A stretch of DNA of 38,379 bases from a bacterium (lineage in GTDB: Bacteria > Bacillota_I > Bacilli_A > RF39 > UBA660): the NCBI GenBank assembly GCA_963645885.1, contig CAVIUL010000001.1, positions 22,265 through 60,643 of the forward strand. The letters run 5' to 3'. Position 1 is the stretch's first letter. The number at the start of each line of letters is the position of its first letter. The position numbers and the translations under genes were made by a program. Below, piece after piece: positions 1-32,409 of the stretch. A model generated the notes under the pieces. The model saw nothing but the letters and a program-made list of their open reading frames with translations, did not search any database and had not been told where the DNA came from.

Positions 1-3000
1 AATTAGAGTTTAAATCTTGAAAATGCAAAAGGTGTTGTTTGTTTAGATTATGAAGTAACTGGTAATGAATCTAAATAGCAAATATTTGGAATTGGTATTA
101 AAACAAAAAAACAAGTTATTGATTATCTTTATAATAAATTGCATATTAAAGGATTTTTCTTTGTAAGACAAAAGAGAATTCCAACAATTCTTTGTCAAGC
201 TTATACTATTGGTATAGATCCTCAAAGTAGAACTCCTATTTTACCAATAAGTACTAATTAGTTTGTTGCTGAAAGAATACTTAATGATGATAGACGACTT
301 CTTCATGATTTTACAAGTAGACTTTATAAAGATTTTAAATATAATCTAGTAAGAAAAGAAGGAGCTATATGTCCTGAATATGATATAGATACTCCTTATT
401 ATAATTCTATATTTACTGGAACTGAATTTCCTGTATATGAAGCTGATTTTTAGTCACCTAATAATTATTTATCTAATATGGGAGATAGACATTATTTTTC
501 AATAGGAACATCAAAACGTGAAAATGATGCTCCTTATGTTACTAAAATCATAGGAGTTGAAGATAATGTCAAATTAGTAAATATAGGTAATAAATTGTTT
601 GCAGCTAGAGCGGGTGAAGCAGAAGAAGCATTTAGATTTGAATACCTAAGTGAAAAAACAGAAAAAACAGAAGCAAATAATATAATAAGAGGTTCTTTTG
701 GACCATATTTAGGTATTACTGGTTATCCTTACTGTGGAAAAATTATAGATATAAAAATACCAGGATTTAATCATTTATCACAATCTGAAGTTTTTAAAAT
801 CAGATATAATGATAAATCTCCATTTTATGCTATATCAGAAAGAATTGCTATTAAAGATATTAGTAATTATTTTAGTGGTTTTCTAAATGAATTAGATAAT
901 GAAGACAAAGATGTATATTTAGAAAATTCTTTATATAGAGGAGATTGTTATATTTGTCAGTTTACACATAGATTAAATCGTAATTTCCAAGATCCTTCAT
1001 CTCCTGCAAATGATAAGATTGTTGACCCTAAATGTTGGTCTGATAATTTTGAATATGCTGATGGAGTTCTTAAAAAAGATAAATTTGATAGTATTAACTT
1101 AGGTGATGTTAATGCTATACAAATGGGAATGTGGGTTACATTTACAGTAAGATCTACTAACAATTTATGTATTCGGGCTATAGATGAATCTAATACAGAT
1201 GAATAGGGAATGTTTGGTAATTACAGAACATTTTATCCTTATGGACCTATGTCAGCAGAAGGTGCATACAAAATACCTGAAGCTTTATGTGTTAATAAAG
1301 GATTTAGTAAATCAGTATCTGAAAGAGTTAATTTTGAGGTACCTGATGTTCCTGCAATTAAAAATGATTTTACAAACAGAATAGCTTATTCAGATATTCA
1401 TGTTAATGATGCTTTTAAAAATGGATATAGAGTATTTAAAGGAACTCATTATAGAGATTATCCAAAAACATACGGTTCAATTACAAAATTAATAGAATTA
1501 CAAGGTAACTTAGTTTGTGTATTTGAACATGGTGTTGCTTTAATACCTGTTAATGAAAGAGCTGTTGCAGGAGAAGGAAGTGGAGGTAATATTTATATTA
1601 ATACATCTAATGTACTTCCTGAAAATCCAAAAATCATATCTGATACTTTTGGTAGCCAATGGAGAGATTCAGTTATAAAAACTCCTAGAGGAATATATGG
1701 AGTTGATACTATTGGTAAAAAGATATGGAGAACTAATGGATAGGATTTTGAATGTATTTCAGATTTTAAAATCCAAGAGTTCTTAAATTTAAATATTTCA
1801 CTTACAGAAAGAGAATTAGACCCTATTATAGGAGTTCGTAACGTAAAAACTCATTATAATAAGTTTAAACATGATGTAATGTTTACATTCTATGATAATC
1901 TTCATGGATTTGAAGAAAAAGTATGGAATGTTTGTTTCAACGAGTTAATGCAAAAATGGATTACTTTTTACAGTTGGGTTCCTAGTTACTCTGAAAATAT
2001 ATATAATTAGTATTTCAGTTTTGATAGAAATACATCAAAATGGATTACAAAGTTAGGAATAAGTAAAACAGATTCTGATTTTGCAGATGGAGTTACTTTA
2101 AGTAATAATATTATTCCTAATGATGCTAAAGCTGGAGATGTAGTTGGGTATTTATCATTATCTAATAGAACTATACCTTCAGGAGATGGAGTAAGCTATG
2201 ATATAAGTTACTCATTAGAAAGAGATAACTTTAGAAATGATAAATATTTTAGAATAGATAAAGTTTCCAAAGGAAATTCTATTTATGATAAAAATGAAGA
2301 TGGAACTACAAAATGGGCATTGTATTTAAAAGTAGATGCTACAGAATTATGTTCTGAACTTTATGTAAGAGGTAAAAAAACTATTGAATCTGGAAAAGTT
2401 GATTATGAAAAATTAATTGAAGAAATTAATGATAATACTAAACCAACTTGGATAGAACACTGTGTTAAAAATTCAGAATATGTTGTTTGTAAAGATGAAA
2501 GAGGAAGAAGAATAAATTTAGAAAAGAAATACAATTATAGTACATTAGTTAAACTTCTTAATATTAAAGCCACAATTTTAACTACAATTGATAGGACAGA
2601 TGTTCCTTTAGCAGAAGCTTATACTACAGGTATTACAAACCAATAGTATGTAGAATCTGGATATTATGAATCAGTAATAGCTGTATCTCCTAAATATAAT
2701 CTTTAGTTCTTAACTACTGATTTCTGGAAACATGGACAAGCAGGTATTATTGATTGTGCAGATACTATTAATCCTACTTATTGGTATGGTAGACAACATC
2801 CTTTTGAATTTGAATTTGTTGTTGCTGATAACCCACAATTACATAAAATTTTTGATAATTTAGAAATCATAAGTAATAACGCAGAACCTGAATCATTCCA
2901 TTATGAAATAGTTGGTGATTGCTATAGTTTTGCTAAAGATAAAAAAAATATGTATATTCGTTAGGAAGCAACTAAAGAATTATATCAATATAATGGATGT

Positions 3001-3675
3001 GATATTCTTTATGATACTAATTATATTGATTAGAATAAAGAAGTACATAGACCTATAGAAGGTAAATTAGATTCAGATGGAAAACAAGTATACGATAAAT
3101 CTACTATATTCCCTCTCTATTATTCAAGAGAAGATACTTTTAATGAAATTGAAGATTCTTATAAAGAAATGACAGCAGCTAACAAAGATTATGAATCTTT
3201 AGCTGGAGCTGAAATTGTTAAATATAATAATCTACAAGAATATCGTATTTGGAATCATGCTAAAGCTGCTGATATTACAAAAGTGGGAAGAATGTAGGGT
3301 AATATGCAATATAAAGAGGATAAATGGGATGTTCAAATTAATCCAATTAATATTGTAGAACGTAACGAAAAAGAATGGGGAACAGAAGATAGTACAGGAG
3401 GAACAGATTTAAATCCTAATAAAATACCTATTGTTTTATAGACTAATAGTATTCCTTCTGAGGTTTGTGATAAAATTCAAAGAGAAGGTACTGATATTCC
3501 TAAAAATTCTGAGGATAGAGCTATATATTCATGGGAGGTTGCAGGATTTAACGATTCTTCTAATAGTTCTGTCAAAGTAAAAGATAAATGGGTAAAGATT
3601 AGGATAAGATACTCTGGTGAAAAATTAGCAATTATCACTGCAATACGAACATTTTATAGTGGAAGTTATTCATAA
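1..3675 (+). CDS. Large virion/tail-associated structural protein, 5' partial (>=1,224 aa), TAG-recoded
   Basis: Frame 1 is open from base 1 to TAA at 3673-3675, apart from 13 in-frame TAGs. ORF-track fragments 478-1206, 1210-1743 and 2320-2646 all lie in this frame. The position directly upstream of cargo-like genes suggests a tail or muzzle-type protein, but I recognised no diagnostic motif. Confidence 0.8.
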
Positions 3676-6152
3676 TGTGGTATTTAAAAAAACAAAAACC
3701 TTTAAAATGCCAAATGTTTGGCACTAATGCTAGTAGTTTCTCTCTCAATAAAAATTTCTAGATGCCTAGTTTAACTTCTTCGCCACTTGCTACGTTACTA
3801 GGACAAACTCCTGAAACTAAACCAGATTTTTTTAATTTTAATGCAAATATACAAAATTCTCAAAATTAGACTAATTCTACAATAATTAATCCTGTTAAAT
3901 CTTTTACTGATACGGGTAGTAAAATAGTAAATGATTCTGCTTTAACATTAGGTTCTACATTAAGTCAATCTTCGGATACACTTACTAAAATATAGGGTCA
4001 ATAGATAAAAAATGATGCTATAACAGACTCTACAGGAGAGAGATTTAAATCAACAGGAGGTACTGATATTAAAGATATTGGTACTAAAAACAAATTTAGT
4101 GTTTCTGATGGTCTTAATTCTGGTTTTTCTGCATTAGGAAAAATAGGAGAAAAAGTAGGAGGTACTGCAGGACAAATAATGTCAGGTGTTAGTAATGTTG
4201 GTTCTAGTGTTATTAATTTAACAAAGACAGCAAAAGCTGCTGGAGGATTTAAAAATTTGTCTGGACTTGCTAAAGGAAATGCTGTTGCAGGTATTGCAGG
4301 AGCTGCTGCTGATATGATCGGCAGTTTTATGCCTCAAAAAACTGAATATGATGGACCTAAAGGCGATATTACATAGACAATGGATAGTGTTTATGATGGT
4401 ATAGCTGATGCTGCAATGTCTATGCCTGGACCAGGTATGATGATCGGTGGTATTATGAAAGCAGGATCTCTTTTAGGAAAAGGAATGAATGCTTTAGGAG
4501 GCGGTACCGATGGAATGTGTGTTTGTGCTGGAACAAAAGTCTTTAAAGCAAATGGAGAGATAATTAATGTAGAAGACTTAAAGAAAGAAGATGGCATTCT
4601 TGGTTGGGATGGTAAATAGGTGGTTCCACAATTAATACACGACTTTATAGAACCTAGACAAAAGAAATGTGTAGAAATTGTATTAAAGAATGGATATTCT
4701 ATTAAATGTAGTATTGACCACCCTATTTTAATAGATAATTCAAAAACTTGGGAATTTAAAAGAGCTGATAAATTAAAAATAGGAGACCTTGTAGGACTTG
4801 CTAATAATATAGATTATTGGGGAAATATTAATGTTCCCGAAGCTTATAATATAGGCAAAGAAGGTATTTTTAAAAATATCAAAAACTTTGATAAAGTTTC
4901 AATTTGTAATCTTTTAGCAGGAATATTTGATGTAAATGGTGATATATCTGTAAATAAGGGAAATTATTCTATAACTTTATATTCTTCTCTTTTAGAAGAA
5001 ATTGCAATACAATTTCATAAATTAGGAATATTTTCTATTATTAAAACAGATAAACATTATCTAAAAATACAAGATATTCCTTCTATTATTAAATTCTATG
5101 AGTTAATTCCTTTAAACGTATCTGATAAAAAAGAATAGCTTAAGAAAATATACAATACATTAAAAGACAAGGAAACCTTTAACCAATCTGAAGCTACTCA
5201 ATGTGAAATAGTATCTATAACACCTATTGGTATACAAACTGTGTATAATCTACAAGCTGATTATAATCACACTTATTTAGCTAATTGTATTATTACACAC
5301 AATACTTCTACAGACGCAATTTTAGGTAGTTCTTTCCTTAGCTTAACACCTATGGGACTAATAAATGGTTTTGGTGGTAAGAAAGCTGATACTATTACTA
5401 AAAACACTGATGCTTTTGAAACTGTAGGTGGTTCCTATTCTGGAGCTAATGCAAAAGTTGATGATGCACTTACTAAGAGTGGTAAAAAATATGGTTTATT
5501 TAGTAGTGGTGCAAGACAAGAAGCTAATCGTGAAATCGCAGAAGCAAAAAGGCAACAAAAAGTTGTATCTGAAATTGCTGATTAGAGTAGAGTAAATACA
5601 ACTTTACAACAATCTATGTCTGCAATTAATGCTAATAGACGAAAATTAGCATTAGAAGGTGGTTACGATTAGGCATCTATACGAGCTGGTAAACAAGGTA
5701 TGAGCATTGAACATACACCTACATAGATTGAATTAATCTCTCCTGTTTCTAAATTTAAAGAAGGAGGATCAGTTAATGTATTACCTGTAGGAGCTTTGCA
5801 TGCTCGTAAACATCATATGGATGTTGAAGGTATTACTGAGAAAGGTATTCCTGTTATAGATAATCGTGGTGAACAATAGGCAGAAATTGAGCATTCTGAA
5901 ATAATATTTAGACTAGAAGTAACTCAAAAATTAGAAGAATTAGAAAAGAAATATAGTGAATCTAATGATGATAAATATGCTTTAGAAGCAGGAGAACTTT
6001 TAGTAGAAGAAATATTGCATAATACAGATGATAAAACTGGTCTTATTAGTACTCTTAAACAAGGTGGAGTTATTAATTCTAAAACTACTATAGTTCAATC
6101 AGATATAGATAAAATGGTTAAACAAGCACTTATTAATATATTAACATAGTAA
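3675..6152 (+). CDS. Gly/Ala-rich protein (825 aa precursor, ~563 aa after splicing) carrying an intein; possible internal/ejection (cargo) protein
   Basis: The ATG at 3675 overlaps the upstream TAA (TAATG). Frame 3 is open to TAA at 6150-6152, with 12 in-frame TAGs. Track ORFs 4179, 4380, 4620 and 5241 share this frame. The N-terminal half has hydrophobic Gly/Ala-rich stretches (AVAGIAGAAADMIGS, GPGMMIGGIMKAGSLLG). The function of the extein is unknown. Confidence 0.8.
4518..5303 (+). mobile_element. Class-1 intein (262 aa) with a reduced LAGLIDADG-type homing endonuclease insert
   Basis: Block A is CVCAGTKVFKANGEIINVEDL, starting at Cys codon 4518. Block B is SIKCSIDHPILI (S-x-x-H). There is one clear LAGLIDADG motif, LLAGIFDVNGDIS. 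Blocks F/G are VYNLQADYNHTYLANCIITHN, ending at Asn codon 5301-5303 and followed by the +1 nucleophile Thr (5304-5306). The intein contains two in-frame TAGs (4617, 5136). Confidence 0.85.
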
Positions 6153-7036
6153 TGAAACAAAGTCAAGCTTTAATGTATAATATACCTATTTTTAATATAG
6201 GAGGTATACTTGCTAAAATAGCAAAATCAGCTAAAAACATACAAGGACAAGCTAATTTAGTAGGAAAAACAAAAAATCCAGAATTATTTAATCTGTTAAG
6301 CAAGTTAGCAAAAAGTTAGAAAGGTGGAACAAAACTTACAGAAAAAGAATCTAAAAAGTTAGTAACATTAGTTCAAAACTATAGAAGAAAGAATGTGCAT
6401 TACCAAGCACGAAGAAAAAAGTTTAATGAAGCTTTATCTGAACGAGCAGCTGCAGAACGAGCAGCTGCAGAACGAGCAGCAACTGAAGCTGCAGCAACTG
6501 AAGCTGCAGCAACTGAAGCTGCAGCAACTGAAGCTACTGGAACTACTGCAGCAACTACAGCCGCAGAACGAGCAGCTACTGCAGCACGAGCAGCTACATC
6601 TGCAGCTCAAGGAAGACTTGCTAAAGCTTGGGGAGTTGTTAAAAGACACCCTTGGATTACAGGAGGTGCTCTTTTAGGATTAAGTAATGGTTCTGTTAGA
6701 CAGGGTATTGGAGCAGGATTAAGTTATTGGACAACTCCAGTTAGTCAACGGGATTAGATTGGAACGCAATCTCCAACTGGATCTCAAATGCAAATAAGAT
6801 TAAATGATGGTTCAATTGTACCAGTAACAATGGGAGATGATGGAATTTTAACATTTGGTTCTACAACGGAAACTGAAGGATCAGATCCTACCGCAGACGC
6901 TATTGCTCAAGCTATCGCTGAAGCTAATGGTGCAGCTAGTACTGGTGCAGCTAGTACTCAAGCTCCATCTCTTGGTTCTTTTGCAACCAATGAAGAATTG
7001 AATGATGTCTTTGAAGATGACGCATGGGATCAGTAA
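6152..7036 (+). CDS. Ala/Glu/Thr-repeat protein with a central hydrophobic segment (294 aa), function unknown
   Basis: The ATG at 6152 overlaps the upstream TAA (TAATG). Frame 2 is open to TAA at 7034-7036, with 2 in-frame TAGs (6318, 6755). Track ORFs 6395-6757 and 6788-7036 share this frame. It contains the repeat AAERAAAERAATEAAATEAAATEAAATEA and the TM-like segment HPWITGGALLGLSNG. Confidence 0.75.
6440..6541 (+). repeat. In-frame 15-bp tandem repeats (gaacgagcagctgca x2-3, then actgaagctgcagca x3-4)
   Basis: Direct reading shows units at 6440, 6455, 6470 (12 bp), 6482, 6497, 6512 and 6527. Degenerate related units continue to about 6600. The repeats encode AAER/AATE pentapeptides. Confidence 0.9.
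6929..6958 (+). repeat. Perfect 15-bp direct duplication ggtgcagctagtact x2 (GAAST GAAST)
   Basis: Read directly: copies at 6929-6943 and 6944-6958, in frame within the 6152-7036 CDS. Confidence 0.85.
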
Positions 7037-7614
7037 TTATAAATAATAAAGAATATAAAGTAAAAGAAGCTAAAACTGAAGAAGAAAAACGCAAAGGATT
7101 ACAAGGAGTAGAAGAGCTTCCTGAAAATGAAGGAATGCTCTTTTACTTTGATCCTGATGAGGAAATTACTATGTGGATGGATAAAACTAAAATACCTCTT
7201 GATATTATTTTTATAAATGAAGATTATGAGGTAACTAAAGTTCATCATGGTATTCCTAATGATAAAACCCAAATATCATCTCCTGAAACTGCTTATGTTT
7301 TAGAAGTAAATCAAAATTCAGGTATTAAAGTTGGAGATGAGGTTGATTTTGATGATAATGATAAACCTCCAATTATGAAAGTTTTGGCTCCAGATGGTAG
7401 TACTTAGATGGAATTATGGGGTGGAGAACGTATAGTTAGTAGACGTGAAACCAAAATCCTCATAAAAAAAGCAAAAGCTGCAGAATTAGTAAAAGATACT
7501 CCTAAATATAAAAATAAATGTATTTCATTAGGTAAATATATGTTTAAAGTATTACGAGGTTAGGATAATAGACCTAATGAATATGTAGAAAATAAAAATG
7601 CTAAAACCGAATAA
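7024..7614 (+). CDS. DUF192 (COG1430-like) domain protein with a basic C-terminal tail (196 aa)
   Basis: The ATG at 7024 overlaps the upstream gene by 13 nt. Frame 1 is open to TAATAA at 7612-7617, with 2 in-frame TAGs (7405, 7561). The sequence KRKGLQGVEELPENEGMLFYF...ITMWMDKTKIPLDIIFINEDYEV...AYVLEVNQNSGIKVGDEV matches the DUF192 pattern as I remember it (GLm..l....GmlF, fwM.nt..pLDiiF, yvLE...G...i..Gd.v). Confidence 0.8.
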
Positions 7615-7618
7615 TAAG

Positions 7619-7650
7619 TTTGGATTAATATAAAATATAGGTTATTTTTG
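7619..7650 (+). promoter_or_regulatory. Bacteroides-type promoter: TTTG (-33-like, 7619-7622) and TATTTTTG (-7 TAnnTTTG, 7643-7650)
   Basis: Both consensus elements of the Bacteroides/Bacteroidota primary-sigma promoter are present, separated by 20 nt, in the only sizeable intergenic gap (7618-7683). They lie about 34 nt upstream of the ATG at 7684. No Shine-Dalgarno-like tract is present. Confidence 0.55.
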
Positions 7651-7683
7651 TACATAATATTAACAATTTAATTATATATAATT

Positions 7684-8046
7684 ATGAATATTACTTATAA
7701 AAACGCAGTAAAAAACGTAAAGAAATTTCAACAAGGTGGCCCAATGGGTCCAGAAGGTGCTCCTGCAGAAGGTGCTCCAGAAGGAGGTGAAATGCCAGCA
7801 GAGGGCGCACCTGAAGGTGGTGCTCCAGAAGGTGCTCCAGAAGGCGGTGGTGAGGATCCAATTGCTCAGTTAGTGCAAATCTTCGCACAAGGACTTCAAA
7901 ATCAAGATTGTCAGATGCTTGCACAGGGTGCACAAATGTTTATGGAACTCGCTCAACAAATGCAGGGCGGTGGTGGTCAACCAGCACCAGAAGGTCAGCC
8001 TGTATTTAGAAAGGGTGGTAAACTTGCATACAGAATTAAATATTAA
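7684..8046 (+). CDS. Small acidic PEGA-repeat / Gln-Met-rich protein (120 aa), TAG-free, function unknown
   Basis: This is an intact ATG-to-TAA ORF in the standard code. It is visibly GC-richer than its flanks. All 15 Gln codons are CAA or CAG, and 5 are CAG, which is rare elsewhere in the window. A promoter lies upstream and a terminator downstream. Confidence 0.85.
   Translation: MNITYKNAVKNVKKFQQGGPMGPEGAPAEGAPEGGEMPAEGAPEGGAPEGAPEGGGEDPIAQLVQIFAQGLQNQDCQMLAQGAQMFMELAQQMQGGGGQPAPEGQPVFRKGGKLAYRIKY
7750..7851 (+). repeat. Imperfect in-frame repeats of ccagaaggtgctcc-type units encoding (P/A)EG(A/G) repeats
   Basis: Read directly: PEGAPAEGAPEGGEMPAEGAPEGGAPEGAPEGGG. Confidence 0.7.
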
Positions 8047-8061
8047 TTATTAATACTCATT

Positions 8062-8101
8062 AAGAGGAAGTGGAGATACACAACTCCTCTTCCTCTTTTT
8101 T
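8062..8101 (+). terminator. Rho-independent terminator
   Basis: A 14-bp stem, AAGAGGAAGTGGAG (8062-8075) pairing with CTCCTCTTCCTCTT (8084-8097), has one mismatch. The loop is 8 nt (ATACACAA). The stem runs into a T-tract ending at 8101 and starts 16 nt after the TAA at 8044-8046. Confidence 0.75.
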
Positions 8102-8106
8102 CATAT

Positions 8107-11100
8107 ATGGCAGAAAGTACACAATAGGTAACACCTACTTTATATAGTTTCTACGGGAAACAATATGATTATAATGATTTAGCTAAAGCAGCTGATTCTG
8201 GTTTAAATGATTATCTTATAACTCTTGAAAGAGGTGTAAAAGATTCTGATAAATTTAAAGCTGCTTATGCTGATATGATGTCAGGAATCAAAGATGGAAC
8301 CATTACATTTGGAGATGGACATTTTACTGATTCAAAAGGAAGATATACTAATGCAGATAAAGAAGCTAAAGACTACTATGGTTTGATAGCCAACTATATT
8401 TATGATAATATGGGTAAGTCTAATGTCTATGAGGCACCAATTTCTCCTGAAGAAGCACGAAAAATAAAATGGGATGATAATAGTGTTAAAACTGCATTAA
8501 TGAGAGAAATCTATAACAGTGATACTGCTGGTAATTTACAAGATTTCTTAGAATTAGATGATGCTAAGAATGGAGTAAGAGGAATTACTAATCGTTCTAC
8601 AAGATTAGCTAATGCTTTTCAATCTATTGCTGATAACTGGGATAATACATTCTCTGGTTATTCAGATAATGATAAAAATAGATATAGACAATTATTAGGA
8701 GAAGCTGCAACCGCATTAAGAGATGGTACTATTAATGCAGGAGATTATTTAGCTTTAAGTAGAGCTATTGGAGGTGTAGATTTTAGAAGTATGTTAGCTA
8801 CAGGGTCTCCAACATCTACTGCTACTCCTGATATAAGTTCTTCTACTACTCCTGATATAAGTTCTGCAACTTCTACTCCATCTTCTACATATAAATTAAA
8901 AAGAGCATCTTTAAATGCTGATGGATATAGTGCTACAGATATTAATTATATGACAGGATTAATGTCTAAAGTAAAGAGTACCAAAGGACTTATTAACATT
9001 CTTAGAAATAGTTTTTATAATAGAAATTATAAATTTGCAAGAGACCCTAGAGTTTATGCAATTTTTAAAAGTAATAAAATTAGTAGTAAAGCAGGAATTA
9101 CTGCAACACTTAATGCATTAAATGCAAGAGGTGTTTTGAAACAAGCAGACCCTTCTAATCCTAATTTAATGTATATACCTGGTCTTAGAACAAAACGAGG
9201 TACAGCTTGGGTTTGGGATAAGTCATCAAATCAAATAGCAGAATTGCAAGTAGATAATATTCCTTATTTAAAAGCTAGATTATCTCAAGTAACATCTCAT
9301 AAAAAAGGAGGAGTACTTTATGCTGAAAAAGGAGCAGAAACTCCTTATTGGTATAGTAGTATAAACGATTATGATAAAAGTAAGTATGGATATTCTTGGG
9401 GTAGTACTGCTTATGGAATGGATAAAGATGGCAATTTTATAGATGCATTTGGAAATGCTAATAAAGGATATAATCAAAATCGTTACACTACAGATTCTGG
9501 ATATAGAGATTTTTCAGATGCTGGAAAAAATATAGCATTAGGTATTGAAAATGCACAAAACTACAAAGACCAAACTTCTAAAATTTTATCAGATTATGAT
9601 GCTTATATTAATGCTTCTGATAAAAGTGGATTTAATGAATCTAATAATTTATTTCTTCGTTATACTAAATGGTATGACTCTTAGCAAACAAATTCTGCTA
9701 ATAGATTTTGGAATGGAGATTAGTTAAATTCAAATTGGACTTCTCAAGGTAAAAGCTATTACGGAAATACAACAGGACCTGTTACTGATATTAAAACTCG
9801 AATCAATTAGTTAAGAAATGATTAGATGGTAGGTATCGCACATAATAATTTTAAAGCAGAAGGAACTCGATATTTTTATAAAGATAAAGATGGAAATCAA
9901 CATTGGGTAGATCCTGAAGTAGCAAAAAATTATTAGAAAAAAGAAGGTGATCCTACAAAAACACAAGATGGTTTTACAACTTGGAGTGATTATGAATTAA
10001 TTGGCCCTGCTCAATAGAAAACAGCACAAGAAACTCCTCAAGGAGATGGTACTCAAATTGATAGAACTGACTAGACACAAAAACCTAGCAAATGGAATGA
10101 ACTTTACGGTAAGATTAAAGGTGGTCTTAATAAGCTAGCTCCTTTGGCTTCTGAAGCTGCACGAATGGGATTATCTATACATACTAATAATAAACTTGCA
10201 GACGTTCTTAGATAGCATACTAAATTAGGTTTATATAACCCTTGGGAATATCATACTCCTATTACTGGAGACTTTGGATAGATGTAGTTTAAATTTAATC
10301 AAGCAGCTCAAACTAGAAGTCTAGGTGACAGAATGGCTAGTAGTACTTCTGATGCATCAACTGGTTTTGCTGCATAGTTAGACGCTAATAGACAAGCTAG
10401 TAGTTAGGAAACTGAAGGATATTTAGCTGATAATAAAGAAAGACAAAGAACTACAGAAGTTGCTCAGCAACATGCATAGCAAGCTATTTAGGTAAAAAAT
10501 GATATTGCAAATAAAAATGTTGACAAACAAGTTGATTATGATGAAAAATTAGGAAATATTGAAGCTCAAAGACTCAATGCTAATTGGCAATCCAAAGATA
10601 ACTTTATTGCTAACAATATATCTGCACCATTAAAAGAACAAGCAGCATACGATCTTTCACAAAAGCGTGCTGAAGAGGCTAACAAAAAAGATCAAAAACT
10701 TCAATTTGATTTAGCTCCACTTACAAGACAACAACGATTTCAATCAAATCAATTAGCAAGATATTATACACAAAAAGGTTAGGATTTGTCTCAAGATTAT
10801 AATTCTAAACTTTTAGCTTGGTAGAAAGTCAATGGAGAGGATGCTGATTATACTCAATAGGATTTTTATAAAAATTATATAAATAAGTCAAGAGAATTAG
10901 AAAATCAAATGTATAAAGACCAGTATGATATGTCTGTAGACTAGAGTAATCAAATTAGAACTTTATATGATAATCTTTATAACAATCAATACGCAAGTAA
11001 TTTTACATCAAATCCTTTTGGAAGTAAAACTACCTCAACTAAAGTTCCTCATTATCAAGAAATATTAAGAGGTGCAGGAATGTTGAGAAAAGGAGGTAAA

Positions 11101-11145
11101 ATTAAACCTCATGTACATAGAACATTAAATTTGTTAGGAATATGA
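8107..11145 (+). CDS. Large protein of unknown function (1,012 aa) with a Ser/Thr-rich linker and a Gln-rich, coiled-coil-like C-terminal half; possible virion internal protein
   Basis: The ATG at 8107 lies 5 nt after the terminator T-tract. Frame 1 is open to TGA at 11143-11145, with 19 in-frame TAGs. Track ORF 8275-9684 is in this frame. Confidence 0.8.
8824..8871 (+). repeat. 24-bp tandem duplication (actcctgatataagttct + 6 nt) encoding TPDISS-STT / TPDISS-ATS
   Basis: The 18-bp core is identical at 8824-8841 and 8848-8865. Confidence 0.85.
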
Positions 11146-13046
11146 AAATAATACCAAAATTTGCGGGAGGAGGGAGCACAGGCTCCTTCTTCACCGTTTA
11201 TCAAGCTGTTTAGAATCCACAAATTGGAGGTTATCCTACTAGTACAAAAACATCTAATTCAACAAGTGATTCTGTAACAGTTAAAGATTCCTCAAAAGAT
11301 TCTTCTGATGAAAAAGAGGATACTAAAGGAAAACTTACAGAAAAAGATTTGTTTAATATGATAAAAGATGTAGAAGGATTGCCTAATGAAATGAAATAGA
11401 TTATAACTTCATTAAAAAGAACTATGGAAACATAGAATTTAGTAGGTCAATCTGCACAAGATATATCTACAACCTATTTAAATGCTTTATATAAAATTAA
11501 AACAGCAAAACAAAATAAATCTAAATTTGATGAGGCTATAAAAGATGCTAAAACTAATGGTAGTTTAGGAGAGGTTGCTATAGGAATGGATGGAGAATTA
11601 TATGCTCAAGATGAAAAAGGAAATCCTATTACTATATCATTAAATACATATCTGGCAAATAAAGATAAATATCATTTATTGACTAATTCTAATTTAGCTT
11701 ACTTGCGTCAATATAATCCAAAACTTGCATTTATGCAAAGTGATACTGTTTTTGAAACAATTACAAATGGTGTTGGATACGAATCATTTCAAACTCTTCT
11801 GGATAAAGCTAAATCAAGTCTTGGAAGCACATCTTCGGAAGAAAAAGGAATTGCTGGTCAAGAAGCTTTAGCTGGATTACGAGCATTGTAGGGTAAATCT
11901 GATGCAGAAAAACAAGCTTTGCTTAAAAAAGCAAATGGAGTACTTTCTTATGATACATTTTAGGAATCAAATGTTAATCAAGTACAATCTTTAATAACTT
12001 ATTTGTCTGCTGTTCTTCCTAAACGTGCTAAAGTATGGGCTGCTACTAAATTTGGAACTGACGAAGATAGTGCAACTAAAGCGTTAGTAGGACAATATCT
12101 CATGGGACAATTAAAAACTACTACTAAATATGAAGTTTCTGGAGGTTCTAAAGGTTCAAAAGATTCTAATGGCTCAGGTTCATCTAGCTCTGGAATGGGA
12201 GATGTTGAATATAATACACCGATGAAATTACTAGAAGGATTGGGAGTACAAAATACATTTACACTTAGTCCAGGAACAACTAGAGCAGTTTAGGTTGTGG
12301 CTAACACTTTACCATTAACTGATGCTTAGGGTAAACCTATAGGAGCTAATAAAACATTATCAGAAGCAGTTAGCGGTGAATATTCAGGAATTTTGGATAT
12401 ACAGCATGCAACAATGGGTGGACAAACAATTGATACATCTGCTTTTAATAGTATAATAGTGAGAGATGGAAAAATTAATTCTATTGATTTTCCTTGTATT
12501 GTTAAAGCTGATGGAACAATTTTACCTAATACTAATCCTGAAACTTATAAAGCAAAACAATTAGCAGATAGAGAATTGAAGCGTAGAGGTATAGATGTTA
12601 CTAAACAAGCAGATATTAAGAAATATTATAAAGCAATCAATCTTACTTATTAGAAATATAAATTAGGAGAAGCTTACAATTCAAATGGTGAACCTACAGG
12701 AAATTGGAGACGATTTGGAGTAATTAATGTAGATGCTAATAGTAAAGCTTTAGGTATGGGTGATTTAGAAGATAATCCTTTACTTAAAGAAATTACAGAT
12801 GATGCAACTATTGACAATTTAATTAGTATTACTAAAGATGAAAACTTTAGTAAAAAAGGAATAATAAGTTCATTTACTGGAAACTATGATAGATTTTACA
12901 GAGGAACACTTTGGATTCCTTTAGATGTAAACTATCATGCTGCATCTACAGGCACAAAAACTAAGGGCGAAGATGTATATAATACAGAAGTTGCTCAGCA
13001 AGCGAGAGATGCTCGTGATAATTGGAATAATGGACCCTCAATTTAA
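11142..13046 (+). CDS. Protein of unknown function (634 aa)
   Basis: The ATG at 11142 overlaps the upstream TGA (ATGA). Frame 3 is open to TAA at 13044-13046, with 8 in-frame TAGs. Track ORFs 11586, 12003, 12393 and 12756 are all in frame 3. Confidence 0.8.
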
Positions 13047-13048
13047 TT

Positions 13049-16000
13049 ATGGAAAGAAGAGAACACGATATATTTATGGATATGCTAGCCAATCCTACTG
13101 CATCATTTGATACAATGGTAACAGTAGGATTGAATTCCTCTAACACTTCTCTACAGGATAGATCTGTATATGAAGGGAACAAATATGTGTAGGAATAGTT
13201 TAAAAATTCAGATGGAGAGTTTGATAAGAAAAAATTTGAGCAAGCATATACCATTGCCAAATCATATTACAATAATTTAGCCAATGCTGATTTTAATGAA
13301 TCTATGCAAAAACAAACTGTTTGGCATAGAGATAGTTTATTAGCACCAGAAGGCTAGAGAGAAAAAGGACCTAGATTCCAAGAATTTAATATGTCTAATC
13401 CTATGGAGTAGGTATTTGGCTTTGGAACTTTAGGAAAAATTGAAGAACCTACTAAGTCTTTAGATGAATTAGCTCAATCCCATAAAGTTTTAGCTAATCC
13501 AACTACAGCAGGAGCAAATTTAGAAAATGCTAAGTGGGAAGATGCTCCTAATGATAACTTTTTCGGCAATTTCTTTGATACTCTTGTTATTGCACAATGG
13601 GATTCTGATGGAGAACATATTGACCCAATAACTGGAGAAAAAGTAAAACATGAAAAAGGTGAGCCTAAATTAAATCAAAATGGAGAGTATTATTATGAAA
13701 AACTTGATGGGCGTGATGTTTATGGTCGTAGAGTTTTAAATAAAATGAATGTTTTGACAAAAGATGGTTCATTTATGAATAGGTTTGACTTTTTTGATTC
13801 AGACGATATTGAACAAAAAAGCATTGCAGGAACTACATTTAAAAATTTAGCTTTAGTAGGTTCCATGTTTATTCCTTATGTTGGTCCTTGGATTGCAGGA
13901 TTAAGTGTAGCTACATAGTTAGCAGGCTTAGGTGCTACGTTAGGTAAAATGGCTTTAGGAAGCGATAGTCCTGTATTGAATGAGATTGAAGGATGGTCTA
14001 AATCTGTAAATAGACAAACTGCAAAATCACAATATGCACAAGAGCATACATGGTGTTGGGAGAATTTTATCAATCTCATAGGTGATACTATGGGACAATT
14101 AAAAGAGTAGAGATTTATCTTTGAGAAAATTCCATCTGTATTTAAAGGAGCAAATATGTCTACCAAAGCAGGATAGGCTGAAAAATTAGCATAGCTTGAA
14201 GAAAAATATTCAACTGAAGCTAAAGAAGCTATAGATAAATTATTTAAAACTGGTAAAAATGGAACAAACTTTACTAAAAGTTCAATAGAATTACAAGAGA
14301 TAGCTCCTTTAAAAGCTCAAGCAGAAATGGATTCATTCATTAAAGGATATAATAAACTTGGAGAAGTTCTTAGTAAAGGTTATATGACAGGAATAACTGT
14401 AGCTGATACATATGGTGAAGCAAAACAAGCAGGAGCTTCTGATTTGGATGCTACTTTATTAACTTTAGGTTATGCTGCAGGTGAATTTGCTATACTTAAT
14501 ACAGGATTAGGTGAATGGATTTTACCTGAATTGAGAGCAGATAAATATAAAACACAAGCCATTAAAAACGCATTATTAAAATTAGACGATGAAGCTAAGT
14601 CTGCAATAAATAACGCATCTAGAGAAGTTAAACAAAGTTACGTTAAACGATTGTTTAATATGGGTAAAAGTATTGCTAACGCTGAATATGCTAATGGAAC
14701 AAGAACTTTGAAAGCAACTCTTGCAGCAGGTGTTGGGGAAGGTGTAGAAGAAGTTAGTGAAGAAGTTTTAGCTGACTTTTCTAAAGCTTGTTTTGATACA
14801 GTTAAATGGTTACAAGGTGATAATGTACGATTAAATACATTTGGATACGACTTTAAAACAGGAAAATGGGATGGTAAAGAAGTTCTTGACAGATATGGTA
14901 TGTCTCTTGTAGGAGGTGCAGTAGGTGGTTCGTTAACTAATGTCGGTACTAGTTACAAAACTTTTAAAGAACTTGATTCTATGACATCTGAATAGGCTAT
15001 TCAAGAGTTAGTTTATATGCATAGAAATGGTACTTTAAATAAATTTGAAGAAAGTATTGATAAATCCCAATTAGCTAATCCTGGTAATTCTGCTACTAAT
15101 TTTGAAGTAAAAGATGGAGTAATATTATATGCTCCAGGAACTTAGGAAAATAATCAAGACTTATTTGCTAAACAAGCATTGCATCAATAGGTTAAAATTA
15201 TAAGAGATATTCTTGATGCAAATGGAGCAAATTTATCTGATGATTCTATTTTATAGAAACAAACTGAAATGTTAGGAGATTTACGTTTTAATGCTTTACA
15301 TAAATCAACAACAGCAGGAGGATTTATTAATGAATTTAATAAATTAAGTTCAGATGTTATTAAATTAACAACTCAAATTAATAATCTAGAATCATCTGAT
15401 TTAGATAGCAATAATGACGGAACGGTTACAGATAAAGAAAAAAGACAGAATGAAGTAAGTCAAGACCATAAAGAACAAATTAAAACATTGCAAAAAACTT
15501 TAAATGATACTAAAACTAAATTATAGGATTTAATTGATGGAAAACGATCTTATGAATTTGTATCTGATGCTTTGTTTGAAATGACTACTGATTTAAGTGG
15601 TAGATTTACAGCTGCAAGTTTTCCTTTATATGTAGAAGCTAAATATCATAAAAAATATTCAGATTTAACAGAGAATGAAAAAGCTATATCTTGGGAAGAA
15701 TACGAAAATTGGAAAACTTCTGAAGGAAGAGATAAGATTAGAGATATGGCAGCTATTTATAGGACTATTTCTGAACAAGCTAGTAAAGTTATTAAAAAAC
15801 ATTCTGATGAATATTTAAAAGGAGATACACATATTCGTAATTTTAACAACCTCATCACAAGAATATTTAATACAATTGATGGTAATTCTGAATCTGATTG
15901 GTTAAGTAATGCTCAACGTATTTAGGACTCTAACTTTAATCAAATTGAAGCAAATTTGATTGCTCAATTTGGAACAGATGAGGATAAAAAAGCATTATAG

Positions 16001-22000: not shown

Positions 22001-22480
22001 GATAATTTTGGAGTAGCTAATTTTAAAATAAGAGTTAATGATGTTGAATATTTATCAAGTTATAATAAATCTACTGGGACTATTAGAATGACACCTCCTG
22101 GAGAATATCATGAAAATGCAGCAACTGCAGTTAAATTATCTATTACAGAACAAAACTTTAACGAGTATATTGCTGATGGTAAAGAAGCTCTTTTTGAATG
22201 GATTGATGAAAACGGATAGTATTACGATTGGGAGATAGAAGACCTTTTTAACTCAACATCACTTGAGGAAATGCAAGAAGTTATTAGTCAAATGACTAAA
22301 TTAGACGATGATGCATTCTTAGATTTAGAAAAATATACAGAAAGTGATGAGTTTAAACAACTTGATGATAGAAAGAAATAGATTGTAAAAGAAATAAACG
22401 AATTAGAACGAGCTATTCGAGATAGAAATTATGATGAAAATCAAGAAACTTGTAAAATTGATATAACTTTTAAAGTATGA
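13049..22480 (+). CDS. Giant protein (3,143 aa) with N-terminal hydrophobic/TM-like segments and an internal SF1 (RecD/Dda/Pif1-like) helicase domain
   Basis: The ATG at 13049 lies 2 nt after the upstream TAA. Frame 2 is open for 9.4 kb to TGA at 22478-22480. I checked every gap between track ORFs and found 52 in-frame TAGs and no TAA or TGA. The hydrophobic run is LALVGSMFIPYVGPWIAGLSVATQLAGLGATLG (about 13850-13950). Confidence 0.85.
17456..18493 (+). other. SF1 helicase core motifs inside the 3,143-aa protein
   Basis: Motifs read in order: Walker A GIAGSGKT (17456-17479); Walker B/motif II LIIIDEIS; motif III VLVAGDFDQSG; motif V-like GGSAQGLESRYYVI; motif VI YTGITRA (TGITRA at 18476-18493). 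They are collinear across 5 TAG-separated ORF fragments. Confidence 0.7.
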
Positions 22481-31400: not shown

Positions 31401-32409
31401 TTGGGGTAATGCTACATTTAGAATATTTATGGAAACTCAAGTTATTCCTGATTTAAAAAAAGGTATTATTCGTCCAGGAACTAGTGTAGGATCCATTAAA
31501 ACTAATAAGTTTATAAAGGATTTAACCCCTGACTTATTTACTAAAACAGTATCTTCTAATCCTACTATATTATATACTTTACCTATTAATATGTTACCTA
31601 GAACAGATGTTGAATAGTCTTTACTAGATTCTTATATTGGTGAGTTTAATGAATTAGCAGGATATACATACGATTATAATGTTATTAAACGAGATGTTGA
31701 TGGAAATGAACAAATTATACAACAATCAATTCCTATTAAAGATTTGTTTATTTACTATTCAATGATAGCACATAATTGGAAATTAGGAGAAAATTCATTA
31801 GTTCCTATTTTAGAAAATTTTTAGGATACTGGTTTAATTGATGCATTTCATAAATATGAGGCATCTTTAGATAATAGTGGGGAAACTCTTACTGAATACA
31901 ACATAAATGAAATTCTTCCATACGTTGTTCCAAGAATGAGTCCTTATTCTGCTTACACAAAATATATAAAAGCGAAAAATCCTTCTAGTAAAAAGATTGA
32001 AATAATGAAAAGAACAGTATCTGATACACAAACTGATAATAATGAGATGTATGAAGGAAATGAAATGTATGAGGATATTATATATGGAATGATTGATTCT
32101 AATAAAATAGGCAATTATGAATTTATACAAAACAATCTTGATACTAATTATTTCACATCTGGTATAATAGGAAGTACAGATAAAATTATAAAATCTGAAA
32201 TTATAGATAATAAGGGTGAATCCTTACAATTAGAAATACAGTATGATTCTGAAAATGATAGTATTAAACGAGTTGCTGTTGATAATGTTATGTATGATAT
32301 TAAAACATTATCTCATGCTCTATTTACTAAAATAGACGGAAGAAAAGTTCCAAATCTATCATTGATGAAAAGTATAATTAAAAATGAATTATATCCATGT
32401 CATGTATAA
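22477..32409 (+). CDS. Giant protein (3,310 aa): putative virion-packaged two-barrel RNA polymerase (crAss-like vRNAP)
   Basis: The ATG at 22477 overlaps the upstream TGA (ATGA). Frame 1 is open for 9.9 kb to TAA at 32407-32409. I checked all gaps and found 52 in-frame TAGs. It contains a beta-prime-like DPBB segment, AARIPAQSMQSYMPMKVVAF...LLQGSDYDIDAVSL. Confidence 0.85.
29284..29298 (+). other. DxDxD (DYDID) candidate catalytic metal-binding motif of the RNAP
   Basis: The codons gac tat gat ata gat give D-Y-D-I-D. The upstream R-x-P...hydrophobic strand resembles bacterial beta-prime (RAPTLHRLGIQAF...NADFDGDQMAVH) and the DxDxD motif reported for giant crAss-like phage proteins. Confidence 0.65.

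What the first reader, a model, noticed from the sequence alone, without database searches (positions are those of the whole stretch)
7615..8101. Moron-like, standard-code cassette embedded in the recoded late operon
The gene at 7684-8046 is the only one in the window with three features together. It has its own promoter-like elements (TTTG, 20 nt, TATTTTTG). It has its own strong intrinsic terminator (8062-8101). It has no TAG codons at all.

The protein has 15 Gln residues, all encoded by CAA or CAG. Five of these are CAG, which is otherwise rare here. In the neighbouring genes a sizeable fraction of the presumed Gln positions are TAG.

The gene is also visibly GC-richer than its flanks. A private promoter and terminator plus atypical composition is the classic phage 'moron' architecture. 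It implies this protein can be made independently of the suppressor system, for example early in infection or from a carrier state.

The product is an acidic PEGA-repeat, Gln/Met-rich protein with no match I recognise. The next gene starts 5 nt after the terminator, so the terminator probably also acts as an attenuator.
Basis: partly seen in the sequence, partly recalled or inferred. Interest (0 to 1): 0.65.

Follow-up and report, generated by a model that had tools for sequence, protein, structure and literature searches.

The report
Conserved small high-output gene, not a moron
The small TAG-free gene with its own promoter and terminator is real, but it is a conserved core gene of a large family of gut crAss-like phages whose layout and stop-codon avoidance match the major capsid gene, so it looks like a high-output late gene and not an imported "moron".

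Summary
There is a 120-codon ORF at 7684-8046, a TTTG-N20-TATTTTTG motif at 7619-7650, and a strong hairpin plus T-run at 8062-8101. The gene has no TAG among 15 Gln codons, excess CAG and raised GC.

The moron reading fails. The gene has over 500 full-length homologs and about 150 clusters at 50% identity. It is syntenic in Zeta-group crAss-like phages (muzzle, g2, DUF192, this gene, g6, g7, giant virion proteins), whether they use TAG-recoded, TGA-recoded or standard code. Most of the GC excess comes from its Gly/Ala/Pro/Glu-rich composition.

The terminator recurs in every clade with unrelated stem sequences. The promoter motif recurs at a fixed position in 50 of 57 loci. No locus has room for a promoter before g6, so the terminator must attenuate transcription into the giant genes.

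TAG depletion is real (7 observed against 68 expected across ten recoded clades) but not absolute: relatives carry 1-4 in-frame TAGs. The major capsid gene shows the same depletion and a terminator.

Best reading: a high-output middle/late gene. Its product probably belongs with the virion cargo proteins, whose N-terminal KKφQxGG motif it shares. That functional assignment is inferred.

The parts
7024..7614 (+). Upstream neighbour g4, a DUF192 protein (196 aa, 2 in-frame TAG). It is the last gene before the cassette.
   Evidence: PF02643 at E = 3e-24. It is the syntenic neighbour in most clades.
7619..7622 (+). -33-like element, TTTG
   Evidence: It aligns with the equivalent TTTG in relatives.
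7643..7650 (+). -7-like element TATTTTTG (TAnnTTTG type), 20 nt after the TTTG. The predicted transcription start is near 7656-7658 (inferred).
   Evidence: A motif with at most one mismatch lies at -64 to -71 in 50 of 57 loci, against 2.2% of background windows.
7657..7683 (+). Predicted AT-rich leader. It contains a TTTAATTTAATT-type element that recurs in relatives as GTTTAA/TTAAAC palindromes.
   Evidence: No other copy occurs in the window. Its function is unknown.
7684..8046 (+). CDS of 120 aa (12.4 kDa, pI 4.76) with no TAG codon. It is a member of an unnamed family of stand-alone proteins of about 80-135 aa.
7720..7740 (+). Codons for the N-terminal motif K13-K-F-Q-Q-G-G19, shared with the N-termini of the g6, g7 and some g2 homologs
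   Evidence: The motif is present in 45 of 60 cargo-block proteins against 2 of 129 other ORFs.
7751..7849 (+). Imperfect 12-15-nt tandem repeat encoding the acidic (P/A)EGA linker. Its length varies between homologs and it is predicted to be disordered.
7858..7974 (+). Codons for residues 59-97, the conserved Gln-rich helical hairpin (EDPxxQLxQxFAQGLQNQDCQxLAQGAQMF)
   Evidence: The AlphaFold2 model has helices 59-73 and 76-97 at pLDDT of about 80, with the rest below 60. Invariant columns are listed.
8005..8025 (+). Codons for the C-terminal motif F108-R-K-G-G-K-L114, which recurs at the C-terminus of g6 homologs
8062..8101 (+). Intrinsic terminator and attenuator: stem-loop at 8062-8097 and T-run at 8096-8101
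   Evidence: dG -19.7, z -4.56. It is the strongest candidate on the + strand and the only one in an intergenic gap. A hairpin plus T-run lies at the same place in every related locus, with unrelated stem sequences.
8107..11145 (+). Downstream gene g6 (1012 aa, 19 in-frame TAG), the first of the TAG-rich large genes that can only be reached by reading through the terminator

Best explanation
**What it is.** This is a conserved core gene of the Zeta group of crAss-like phages (genomes of 145-192 kb). It lies in the block of virion 'cargo' genes, after the tail muzzle gene and before the giant virion proteins. One of those, g9, carries a DYDID motif like the catalytic motif of crAss virion RNA polymerases.

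**How it is probably expressed.**
1. Host RNA polymerase starts at a Bacteroidota-type -33/-7 promoter at 7619-7650.
2. It transcribes the 363-nt ORF.
3. Most transcripts end at the intrinsic terminator at 8062-8101.
4. This gives a short, abundant mRNA. Only the read-through fraction continues into g6-g11, which are needed in few copies.

In relatives where the gene block has been moved, this gene is the first gene of the block. It still carries the terminator, so the pair acts as the block's promoter plus attenuator.

**Why it avoids TAG.** Near-absence of TAG is the same signature the major capsid gene shows in these phages. It most likely reflects selection against recoded stop codons in genes that must give a very high or reliable output. 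It does not indicate foreign origin or early expression.

**What the product may do.** The protein is 12 kDa, acidic and largely disordered, with one helical hairpin. It shares its N-terminal KKφQxGG motif and C-terminal RKGGK motif with the neighbouring cargo proteins. I infer that it is an abundant partner of those proteins, either packaged with them or helping to load them.

**Shown versus inferred.** Shown: gene conservation, synteny, conserved promoter and terminator positions, TAG depletion, the parallel with the capsid gene, and the shared motifs. Inferred: actual transcript ends, abundance, virion location and role.
For: - **Family and synteny.** 519 homologs. 151 clusters at 50% identity, nearly all 80-135 aa and stand-alone. 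The order muzzle (PF25731), g2, DUF192, target, g6, g7, giant is kept in TAG-recoded, TGA-recoded and standard-code loci. In the DUF192-anchored scan, 60 of 80 loci have the gene directly downstream, and 14 of the other 20 carry it elsewhere on the contig.
- **Terminator.** A hairpin plus T-run follows the stop codon in all 56 loci analysed (55 related loci plus the window), at dG -16 to -26. At least 8 unrelated stem sequences occur.
- **Promoter.** Present in 50 of 57 loci at -64 to -71, against a 2.2% background.
- **No room for another promoter.** The T-run lies 5-22 nt from the next ATG. In rearranged clades the gene heads the block.
- **Class of expression.** In phi14:2, host RNA polymerase transcribes the middle and late genes, including the virion RNA polymerase block.
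- **TAG depletion.** 7 observed against 68.1 expected of 182 Gln-type codons in ten recoded clades. Conserved Gln columns switch freely between CAA (69) and CAG (44) but are rarely TAG (4).
- **Parallel with the capsid gene.** In MT835492.1 the only significantly TAG-poor genes are the MCP (PF23898; 4 of 23), a 338-aa gene (2 of 15) and this gene (4 of 17), against 0.57 overall. Each of the three is followed by a terminator-like hairpin. The same three hairpins occur in a standard-code relative. Across 16 TAG-recoded MCP loci, the MCP has 33 TAG against 121 expected, and it is TAG-free in 7 of them.
- **Codon bias.** The GGT share for Gly is above the flanks in 12 of 15 clade representatives.
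- **Motifs.** The N-terminal motif is in the target 17/17, g7 15/17, g6 10/17 and g2-like 3/9, against 2 of 129 other ORFs. PhicrAss001 cargo protein gp45 has a similar basic N-terminus ending in FDTGG and a C-terminal KAKGGK. In that phage, cargo proteins are encoded right after the muzzle gene.
Against: - No transcript, protein or virion data exist for this gene.
- The promoter consensus is recalled from the Bacteroides literature and the host is not identified.
- The promoter motif is missing in 7 loci (L013 and the L014 clade) and in MT835470.1, where another ORF abuts the gene.
- An acidic 353-aa gene just upstream of the MCP, possibly a scaffold and so also abundant, is not TAG-depleted (19 of 35). 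The link between expression and TAG content is therefore not perfect.
- Codon biases other than GGT are inconsistent between clades. In the standard-code clade the gene's GC3 is below its flanks.
- g2, g6 and g7 show no detectable sequence similarity to the phicrAss001 cargo proteins gp45 and gp46. 'Cargo block' therefore rests on position and on the motif only.
- The related loci are not independent. Many are near-identical.
Confidence: 0.6

Rival explanations
1. **Timing rather than output.** The gene avoids TAG because its product must be made before the phage's suppressor tRNA is active. It might act as a chaperone or regulator needed ahead of the TAG-rich cargo proteins encoded on the same transcript. 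The private promoter would then serve that earlier expression.
For: TAG is strongly depleted while the co-transcribed downstream genes carry 8-52 TAGs each. The published model for recoded phages holds that standard-code genes are translated before the code switch. The gene has its own promoter.
Against: Relatives carry 1-4 in-frame TAGs in this gene, one of them inside the invariant KFQQGG motif. The MCP, a late gene, shows equal or stronger TAG depletion. In phi14:2, host-type promoters drive the middle and late classes. The same cassette exists in standard-code relatives.
Confidence: 0.15
2. **Abundant non-virion protein.** The gene is highly expressed, but its product acts in the infected cell, for example in host takeover, anti-defence or as an assembly scaffold that is not packaged. 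It would not be part of the virion cargo.
For: The protein is small, acidic and mostly disordered, like many phage effector and scaffolding proteins. There is no homology to any known virion protein.
Against: The gene's position inside the virion gene block is conserved. When the block is split, the gene moves with g6-g8. It shares both terminal motifs with the neighbouring large proteins.
Confidence: 0.12
3. **Moron.** A foreign promoter-ORF-terminator cassette was inserted into the late operon. It would be expressed independently, for example in a carrier state.
For: Promoter, terminator, raised GC and standard-code readability occur together in this window.
Against: The gene is present and syntenic throughout the family under three genetic codes. 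The GC excess is largely explained by amino-acid composition. Relatives have in-frame TAGs. The same architecture surrounds the MCP.
Confidence: 0.03
4. **Leader-peptide attenuation.** The Gln-rich ORF would serve mainly as a sensor. Ribosome progress through its Gln codons would control whether the terminator forms, and so control entry into the TAG-rich genes.
For: A Gln-rich ORF (12-20% Gln) ends just before a terminator that gates genes dependent on a Gln suppressor.
Against: The protein sequence is under strong purifying selection, with synonymous changes at invariant residues. The distance from the stop codon to the hairpin varies from about 5 to 26 nt between clades. The arrangement is identical in standard-code relatives.
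Confidence: 0.03

Closest known systems
Phage morons (promoter-ORF-terminator units in late operons of lambdoid and HK97-like phages; recalled from the Hendrix/Juhala literature)
   Same: A small ORF with its own promoter-like element and an intrinsic terminator, nested between genes of a long late operon. Its base composition differs from the flanks.
   Different: It is conserved and syntenic across the whole phage group under three genetic codes. It is not sporadic. The composition difference is mostly due to amino-acid content. crAss-like phages are not known as classical temperate phages. The same layout surrounds the capsid gene.
High-output late genes bounded by a leaky terminator, such as T7 gene 10 with T-phi (recalled), and the MCP gene of these same Zeta-group phages (tested here)
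   Same: A terminator directly after the gene gives a short, abundant transcript and lowers transcription of downstream genes. The TAG-poor codon usage matches that of the MCP.
   Different: The product is a 12-kDa, mostly disordered protein of unknown role, not a capsid protein. The genes it gates are giant virion and RNA-polymerase-like proteins.
PhicrAss001 cargo (ejection) proteins C1/gp45 and C2/gp46 (Bayfield et al. 2023, PMC10172136)
   Same: Encoded after the muzzle gene and before the giant RNA-polymerase-associated proteins. gp45 has a basic N-terminus ending in FDTGG, several φxGG motifs and a C-terminal KAKGGK, which resemble the KKFQQGG and FRKGGK motifs here.
   Different: No detectable sequence homology. 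The protein here is 5-7 times smaller. There is no proteomic or structural evidence that it is in the virion.
T4 internal proteins with a shared N-terminal capsid-targeting sequence (recalled)
   Same: Several otherwise unrelated proteins encoded near each other share a short N-terminal motif. Some are small and abundant.
   Different: The motif sequence is unrelated. There is no evidence of a protease or of cleavage after GG, and packaging has not been shown.
Standard-code genes within recoded phage genomes (Borges et al., bioRxiv 2021.08.26.457843)
   Same: A gene readable in standard code inside a genome that otherwise reads TAG as Gln.
   Different: It lies in the late virion block, not among early genes or code-switch genes. 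The depletion is graded rather than absolute across relatives, and the MCP shares it.

Membership tests
Phage moron | Own promoter upstream of the ORF | tested here: met
   TTTG-N20-TATTTTTG at 7619-7650. Its position is conserved in 50 of 57 loci. This is sequence evidence only; no transcript data exist.
Phage moron | Own intrinsic terminator downstream | tested here: met
   Hairpin at 8062-8097 plus T6, dG -19.7, z -4.56. Conserved in all loci.
Phage moron | Sporadic presence: inserted between genes that are adjacent in related phages | tested here: not met
   Present in all 56 loci found through the gene itself. In the scan anchored on DUF192, it was found in 74 of 80 contigs (60 adjacent, 14 elsewhere on the contig). 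No case of DUF192 abutting g6 was seen.
Phage moron | Composition or codon usage pointing to a foreign origin | tested here: not met
   GC is 0.464 against 0.425 expected from its amino acids under the flanks' codon usage. The residual bias (GGT, no TAG) resembles that of the phage's own MCP.
Phage moron | Expression from a prophage or carrier state, with benefit to the host | not testable with these tools
   No expression data, and no integrase or lysogeny genes in the window.
Rho-independent (intrinsic) terminator | Stable GC-containing stem-loop immediately followed by a T-run, at the 3' end of a gene on the coding strand | tested here: met
   The structure, not the sequence, is conserved across clades.
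Rho-independent (intrinsic) terminator | Demonstrated transcript 3' ends at the T-run | not testable with these tools
   Needs Term-seq or 3'-RACE.
Bacteroidota primary-sigma promoter (-33 TTTG / -7 TAnnTTTG; consensus recalled from the Bacteroides literature) | Both elements present with 19-21 nt spacing, upstream of a gene | tested here: met
   Exact match with a 20-nt spacer. Exact or one-mismatch matches lie at the same distance from the ATG in most clades.
Bacteroidota primary-sigma promoter (-33 TTTG / -7 TAnnTTTG; consensus recalled from the Bacteroides literature) | The host is a member of Bacteroidota and the site is used in vivo | not tested
   The host is inferred only from membership of the crAss-like group (muzzle PF25731; MCP PF23898 in a relative).
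Crassvirus cargo / ejection proteins | Encoded between the muzzle gene and the giant RNA-polymerase-associated genes | tested here: met
   g9 carries a DYDID motif.
Crassvirus cargo / ejection proteins | Sequence or structural homology to gp45 or gp46 of phicrAss001 | tested here: not met
   No BLASTP similarity and no PDB profile hit. Only short shared motifs.
Crassvirus cargo / ejection proteins | Presence in purified virions | not testable with these tools
   Residues 15-109 contain no Lys or Arg. Trypsin-based proteomics would therefore miss almost the whole protein.
Zeta-group crAss-like phages (Yutin 2021; proposed Echekviridae) | Large genome (145-192 kb), inteins, and sister branches using TAG, TGA or the standard code | tested here: met
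   Related contigs reach 213 kb. g2 contains an intein. All three codes occur among the relatives. No TerL phylogeny was run.

The most novel reading that the evidence does not exclude
The gene may encode a previously unrecognised, abundant virion cargo or ejection-associated protein. The N-terminal [KR][KR]-φ-Q-x-G-G motif it shares with the g6, g7 and g2 families, and in looser form with phicrAss001 gp45, would then be a common loading or ejection-leader signal for proteins that crassviruses package and inject. Separately, the density of recoded TAG codons may act as an output dial. High-copy genes (the MCP and this gene) purge TAG, while giant low-copy genes accumulate dozens.
Probability: 0.25. 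Interest if true: 0.6.

Novelty: new member of a known kind. Interest (0 to 1): 0.4.

Why it matters
- **Annotation.** It corrects an attractive but wrong label. A promoter-ORF-terminator unit that is TAG-free inside a recoded late operon need not be imported DNA.
- **Biology of recoding.** In these phages the combination of few or no recoded stops plus a terminator marks the genes that are probably needed in the largest amounts. The capsid gene behaves the same way. This suggests that reading TAG as Gln has a cost, or is incomplete, and that selection removes TAG where output matters.
- **A candidate protein.** It flags an uncharacterised, widespread small protein family at the head of the cargo and virion-polymerase genes. 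This phage group makes up a sizeable share of human gut virome reads.
- **A candidate signal.** The short terminal motif shared by neighbouring cargo proteins could be tested as a packaging or ejection signal.
- **A practical warning.** Standard tryptic proteomics cannot see this protein.

Tried and rejected
- **Family searches on the target.** Pfam and PHROGs gave nothing. A profile search against PDB sequences gave only a chance hit at E = 1.9. Rfam over 7000-8800 gave only chance-level hits. The window has no tRNA genes.
- **GenBank phages.** tblastn with the target found nothing, probably because of low-complexity masking. DNA searches found only two unannotated records. Those records were later reached through the DUF192 protein and proved useful.
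- **Structure.** The AlphaFold2 model had mean pLDDT 58. I did not run a fold search, because a low-confidence helical hairpin would give meaningless matches.
- **Reaching the capsid gene by walking.** Exact-pattern walking along an IMG/VR contig is limited by the stored chunks and led into homing-endonuclease-like ORFs. I dropped this in favour of MT835492.1 and a scan seeded with the MCP.
- **Consensus scanner.** It missed the terminator because of the mismatch in its stem, and its sigma-70 promoter model does not apply to this host type.
- **Rejected: a double-glycine secretion leader** for the N-terminal ...KKFQQGG. The spacing of hydrophobic residues and the basic charge do not fit that consensus as I recall it.
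- **Rejected: leader-peptide attenuation.** See the rival explanations.
- **Rejected: mutational inertia as the cause of TAG absence.** CAA and CAG interchange freely at conserved Gln columns.
- **Rejected: general codon adaptation towards GC3.** The direction differs between clades.
- **Homology to phicrAss001 cargo proteins.** BLASTP of g2, g6 and g7 against gp45 and gp46 found nothing significant.
Full report
**1. Context**

The window has 29% GC, and all its large genes lie on the + strand. Reading TAG as sense doubles + strand ORF coverage (21 kb to 41 kb), whereas reading TGA as sense does not. With TAG read as Gln the gene map is:

| Gene | Coordinates | Notes |
|---|---|---|
| g1 | 1-3675 | partial |
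| g2 | 3675-6152 | |
| g3 | 6152-7036 | |
| g4 | 7024-7614 | |
| target | 7684-8046 | |
| g6 | 8107-11145 | |
| g7 | 11142-13046 | |
| g8 | 13049-22480 | 3143 aa |
| g9 | 22477-32409 | 3310 aa |
| g10 | 32397-33455 | |
| g11 | 33455-38257 | |

- On a near-identical public contig, g1 matches the crassvirus muzzle family PF25731.
- g2 contains an intein and g4 is a DUF192 protein.
- g9 carries a DYDID motif like the catalytic motif of crAss virion RNA polymerases.

Related contigs are very large (up to 213 kb) and contain inteins, and sister lineages use TAG-recoded, TGA-recoded or standard code. This matches the 'Zeta' group of crAss-like phages described by Yutin et al. (PMC7886860). I did not run a TerL phylogeny.

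**2.

- **ORF, promoter-like motif, hairpin and spacing.** The motif lies at 7619-7650. The hairpin plus T-run lies at 8062-8101 (dG -19.7, z -4.56). Five nt separate the T-run from the g6 start. All are as described.
- **Intergenic gaps.** The two gaps flanking the gene are the only ones on the + strand. The hairpin is the only convincing + strand terminator in 38 kb.
- **Gln codons.** The gene has 10 CAA, 5 CAG and no TAG. The other genes use TAG for 30% of Gln-type codons and CAG for 5.6% of CAA+CAG (P = 0.0045 and 0.001).
- **GC.** The gene is at 0.464 against 0.293 for the window. A simulation that keeps its amino-acid sequence and draws codons from the flanking genes gives 0.425 ± 0.008. 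Most of the excess therefore comes from the Gly/Ala/Pro/Glu-rich composition. A residual codon bias remains: GGT 17 of 23, CCA 9 of 12, and GC3 0.225 against 0.164 expected.

**3. It is a conserved core gene, not an insertion**

- A protein search returned 519 homologs. The best 120 are all full length, at 58-100% identity, on contigs of up to 175 kb.
- An exhaustive profile search found 151 clusters at 50% identity. Nearly all are stand-alone proteins of 80-135 aa.
- The alignment shows four parts:
  - a conserved N-terminus (M-x-I-T-Y-K...KKFQQGG);
  - an acidic linker of variable length;
  - a conserved Gln-rich segment (EDPxxQLxQxFAQGLQNQDCQxLAQGAQMF);
  - a conserved C-terminus (EPVFRKGGxLAYRIKK).
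- In 56 IMG/VR loci the gene occurs in TAG-recoded, TGA-recoded and standard-code phages. The order muzzle, g2, (g3), DUF192, target, g6, g7, giant gene is kept.
- For an unbiased presence/absence test I searched with the neighbouring DUF192 protein instead:
  - 60 of 80 loci have the gene directly downstream;
  - 14 of the other 20 are contigs on which the gene had already been found elsewhere;
  - in those clades DUF192 ends the + strand block, and the target heads a relocated target-g6-g7-g8 block.
- No locus shows DUF192 abutting g6. Six contigs remain unresolved.

**4. The promoter and terminator are conserved features**

- **Terminator.** In every locus a hairpin (dG -16 to -26) plus a T-run follows the stop codon. 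At least eight unrelated stem sequences occur between clades, so the structure is what is maintained.
- **Promoter.** A TTTG-N18-22-TAnnTTTG motif with at most one mismatch lies 64-71 nt upstream of the ATG (89-96 nt in the TGA clade) in 50 of 57 loci. The background is 2.2% of equal-sized windows.
- **Read-through.** The T-run is only 5-22 nt from the next start codon in all clades, which leaves no room for a promoter. g6 and the genes beyond it must be transcribed by read-through.
- **Temporal class.** In the crAss-like model phage phi14:2, the injected virion polymerase transcribes the early genes. Host RNA polymerase transcribes the middle and late genes, including the virion polymerase block, from host-type promoters (bioRxiv 10.1101/2020.03.07.982082). 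A host-type promoter here therefore points to middle or late expression, not early.
- **Precedent.** PhicrAss001 also has a hairpin and a TTTG...TAnnTTTG motif in the gap after its muzzle gene.

**5. TAG avoidance is real and graded, and the capsid gene shares it**

Across ten TAG-recoded clade representatives the gene has 7 TAG where 68.1 are expected from the flanks, out of 182 Gln-type codons.

This is not mutational inertia. At conserved Gln columns the recoded representatives use CAA 69 times, CAG 44 times and TAG 4 times, and CAA and CAG switch freely.

The avoidance is not absolute:

| Relative | In-frame TAG in the gene |
|---|---|
| L011 | 3, one inside KFQ(Q)GG |
| L042 | 2 |
| L020, L045, L053 | 1 each |
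| MT835492.1 | 4 of 17 Gln-type codons |

In MT835492.1, where TAG makes up 57% of all Gln-type codons, only three genes are significantly TAG-poor:
- the major capsid protein (PF23898; 4 of 23);
- a 338-aa gene (2 of 15);
- this gene (4 of 17).

Each of the three is followed by a terminator-like hairpin. Apart from the promoter-side gap in front of the target, those are the only intergenic gaps in the region. The standard-code relative MT835470.1 has the same three hairpins.

In 16 TAG-recoded loci found with the MCP, the MCP has 33 TAG against 121 expected. It is TAG-free in seven of them. In 57 of 80 MCP loci a hairpin plus T-run follows the gene.

The target therefore belongs to a class of terminator-bounded, TAG-poor late genes that includes the most abundant structural protein. 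A mild GGT preference for Gly, higher than the flanks in 12 of 15 clades, points the same way. Other codon biases are inconsistent between clades.

**6. What the protein may do**

The AlphaFold2 model is confident only for a helical hairpin at residues 59-97. The rest is predicted to be disordered. There are no matches in Pfam, PHROGs or PDB sequences.

The informative clue is the set of shared terminal motifs:
- The N-terminal [KRQ]-x(0-1)-φ-x-x-G-G pattern within the first 30 residues is present in the target (17/17), g7 homologs (15/17), g6 homologs (10/17) and g2-like proteins (3/9). It occurs in 2 of 129 other ORFs and 2 of 189 shuffled controls.
- Within one genome the N-termini can be nearly identical. 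In L018 the target starts MKLEPKVKKFQQGG and g7 starts MKLEPIRKMQSGGG.
- The C-terminal FRKGGKL motif recurs at the C-terminus of g6 homologs.

In phicrAss001, the genes after the muzzle gene encode cargo proteins. [quoted passage not shown] Cargo protein gp45 has a basic N-terminus ending in FDTGG, further φxGG motifs just before its two structured segments, and a C-terminal KAKGGK.

From this I infer that the target is an abundant partner of the cargo proteins, either co-packaged with them or acting as a loading factor. This step is inference. BLASTP shows no homology between g2, g6 or g7 and gp45 or gp46. Virion proteomics would have missed the protein, because residues 15-109 contain no Lys or Arg.

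**7. Verdict**

- The regulatory anatomy is supported by comparative evidence: an independent promoter and an attenuating terminator.
- The 'moron' label and the 'early or carrier-state, suppressor-independent' inference are not supported.
- The gene is a new, uncharacterised member of a known kind, namely a high-output late gene bounded by a leaky terminator. Two observations may be useful more widely: TAG density tracks the presumed output of a gene in recoded crass-like phages, and the cargo-block proteins share a terminal motif.
- Interest is moderate.

**Caveats**

- There are no expression or protein data.
- The host is inferred.
- The promoter consensus is recalled, not derived here.
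- Many related loci are near-duplicates, so the locus counts overstate independence. The clade-level analyses reduce this problem but do not remove it.

Noticed in passing
window 7720-7740, 8005-8025, 11142-11180 (g7 N-terminus), 11080-11145 (g6 C-terminus); also L004-L059, L143, L144: Up to four otherwise unrelated protein families in consecutive genes (g2, target, g6, g7) share an N-terminal basic-φ-x-x-GG motif. The target and g6 also share a C-terminal [FL][RK][KR]GGK motif. In this window g6 has lost the N-terminal motif (MAESTQQVTPTLYSFYG, against MSLAKKMQQGGTTPNLYSFYG in L004).
   Followed up: partly
window 3675-6152 (g2), about residues 297-543: The first gene after the muzzle gene contains an intein (PF14890, E = 5.5e-15). 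Homologs in several relatives are shorter by about the length of the intein.
   Followed up: no
window 6390-6760 (inside g3): A second GC-rich patch (GC up to 0.46) coincides with an Ala/Thr/Glu-rich repeat (AAAERAAAERAATEAAATEAAATEAAATEA). It shows that GC peaks in this genome follow low-complexity protein composition.
   Followed up: partly
window 32397-33455 (g10) and 22477-32409 (g9): g10 (352 aa), which lies between the giant genes, has an HELMH (HExxH) motif like that of zinc metalloproteases. g9 has HESMH at residue 1721 and a DYDID motif at residue 2270.
   Followed up: no
L143 (MT835492.1) 5819-6835 and 6836-6892; L144 6598-7638 and 7639-7702: A gene of 338 or 346 aa, four genes downstream of the MCP, is as TAG-poor as the MCP (2 of 15) and is followed by a strong terminator. 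It has no Pfam, PHROG or PDB sequence match and may be another high-copy capsid component.
   Followed up: partly
L143 1313-2374: The very acidic 353-aa gene directly upstream of the MCP sits where a scaffold gene would be expected. It is not TAG-depleted (19 of 35), which is an exception to the link between high output and low TAG.
   Followed up: no
window 7657-7683; equivalent leaders in L013, L014, L018, L022, L042, L056: Short TTTAA-based palindromes or repeats lie between the -7 box and the ATG, for example GTTTAATTAAAC in L014, TTTAACGTTAAA in L042 and GTTAAACTGTTTAAAC in L022. They could be an operator or simply an AT-rich leader.
   Followed up: partly
alignment of target homologs, columns around residue 76: The invariant Cys (QNQDC) is joined by a second Cys seven residues later (DCxxAMQVC) in most distant clades. 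The window's own clade has Gly-Ala at that position.
   Followed up: no
L014-L017, L019, L055 (about 4 kb between DUF192 and the target) and L144 20608-21390: In some clades extra genes are inserted between DUF192 and the target. The L014 clade has about 4 kb with several ORFs, and MT835470.1 has a 260-aa ORF ending 7 nt before the target. These loci lack the promoter motif. In the L014 clade the target uses CAG for all 17-18 Gln codons, and its GC3 is 0.50-0.57 against 0.31 in the flanks.
   Followed up: partly
L061 587-3234 (upstream of the muzzle region on the L004 contig): ORFs resembling homing endonucleases (for example a GIY-YIG-like N-terminus, MIEGIIYKYTSPSGKSYIGQT) are interspersed among the tail genes. 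This fits the high density of mobile elements reported for this phage group.
   Followed up: no
L060 (phicrAss001) 1881-1987: The gap between the muzzle gene gp44 and the cargo gene gp45 in phicrAss001 also holds a hairpin plus T-run, followed by TTTG-N21-TACATTTG. Terminator-plus-promoter punctuation just after the muzzle gene may therefore be general in crassviruses.
   Followed up: no
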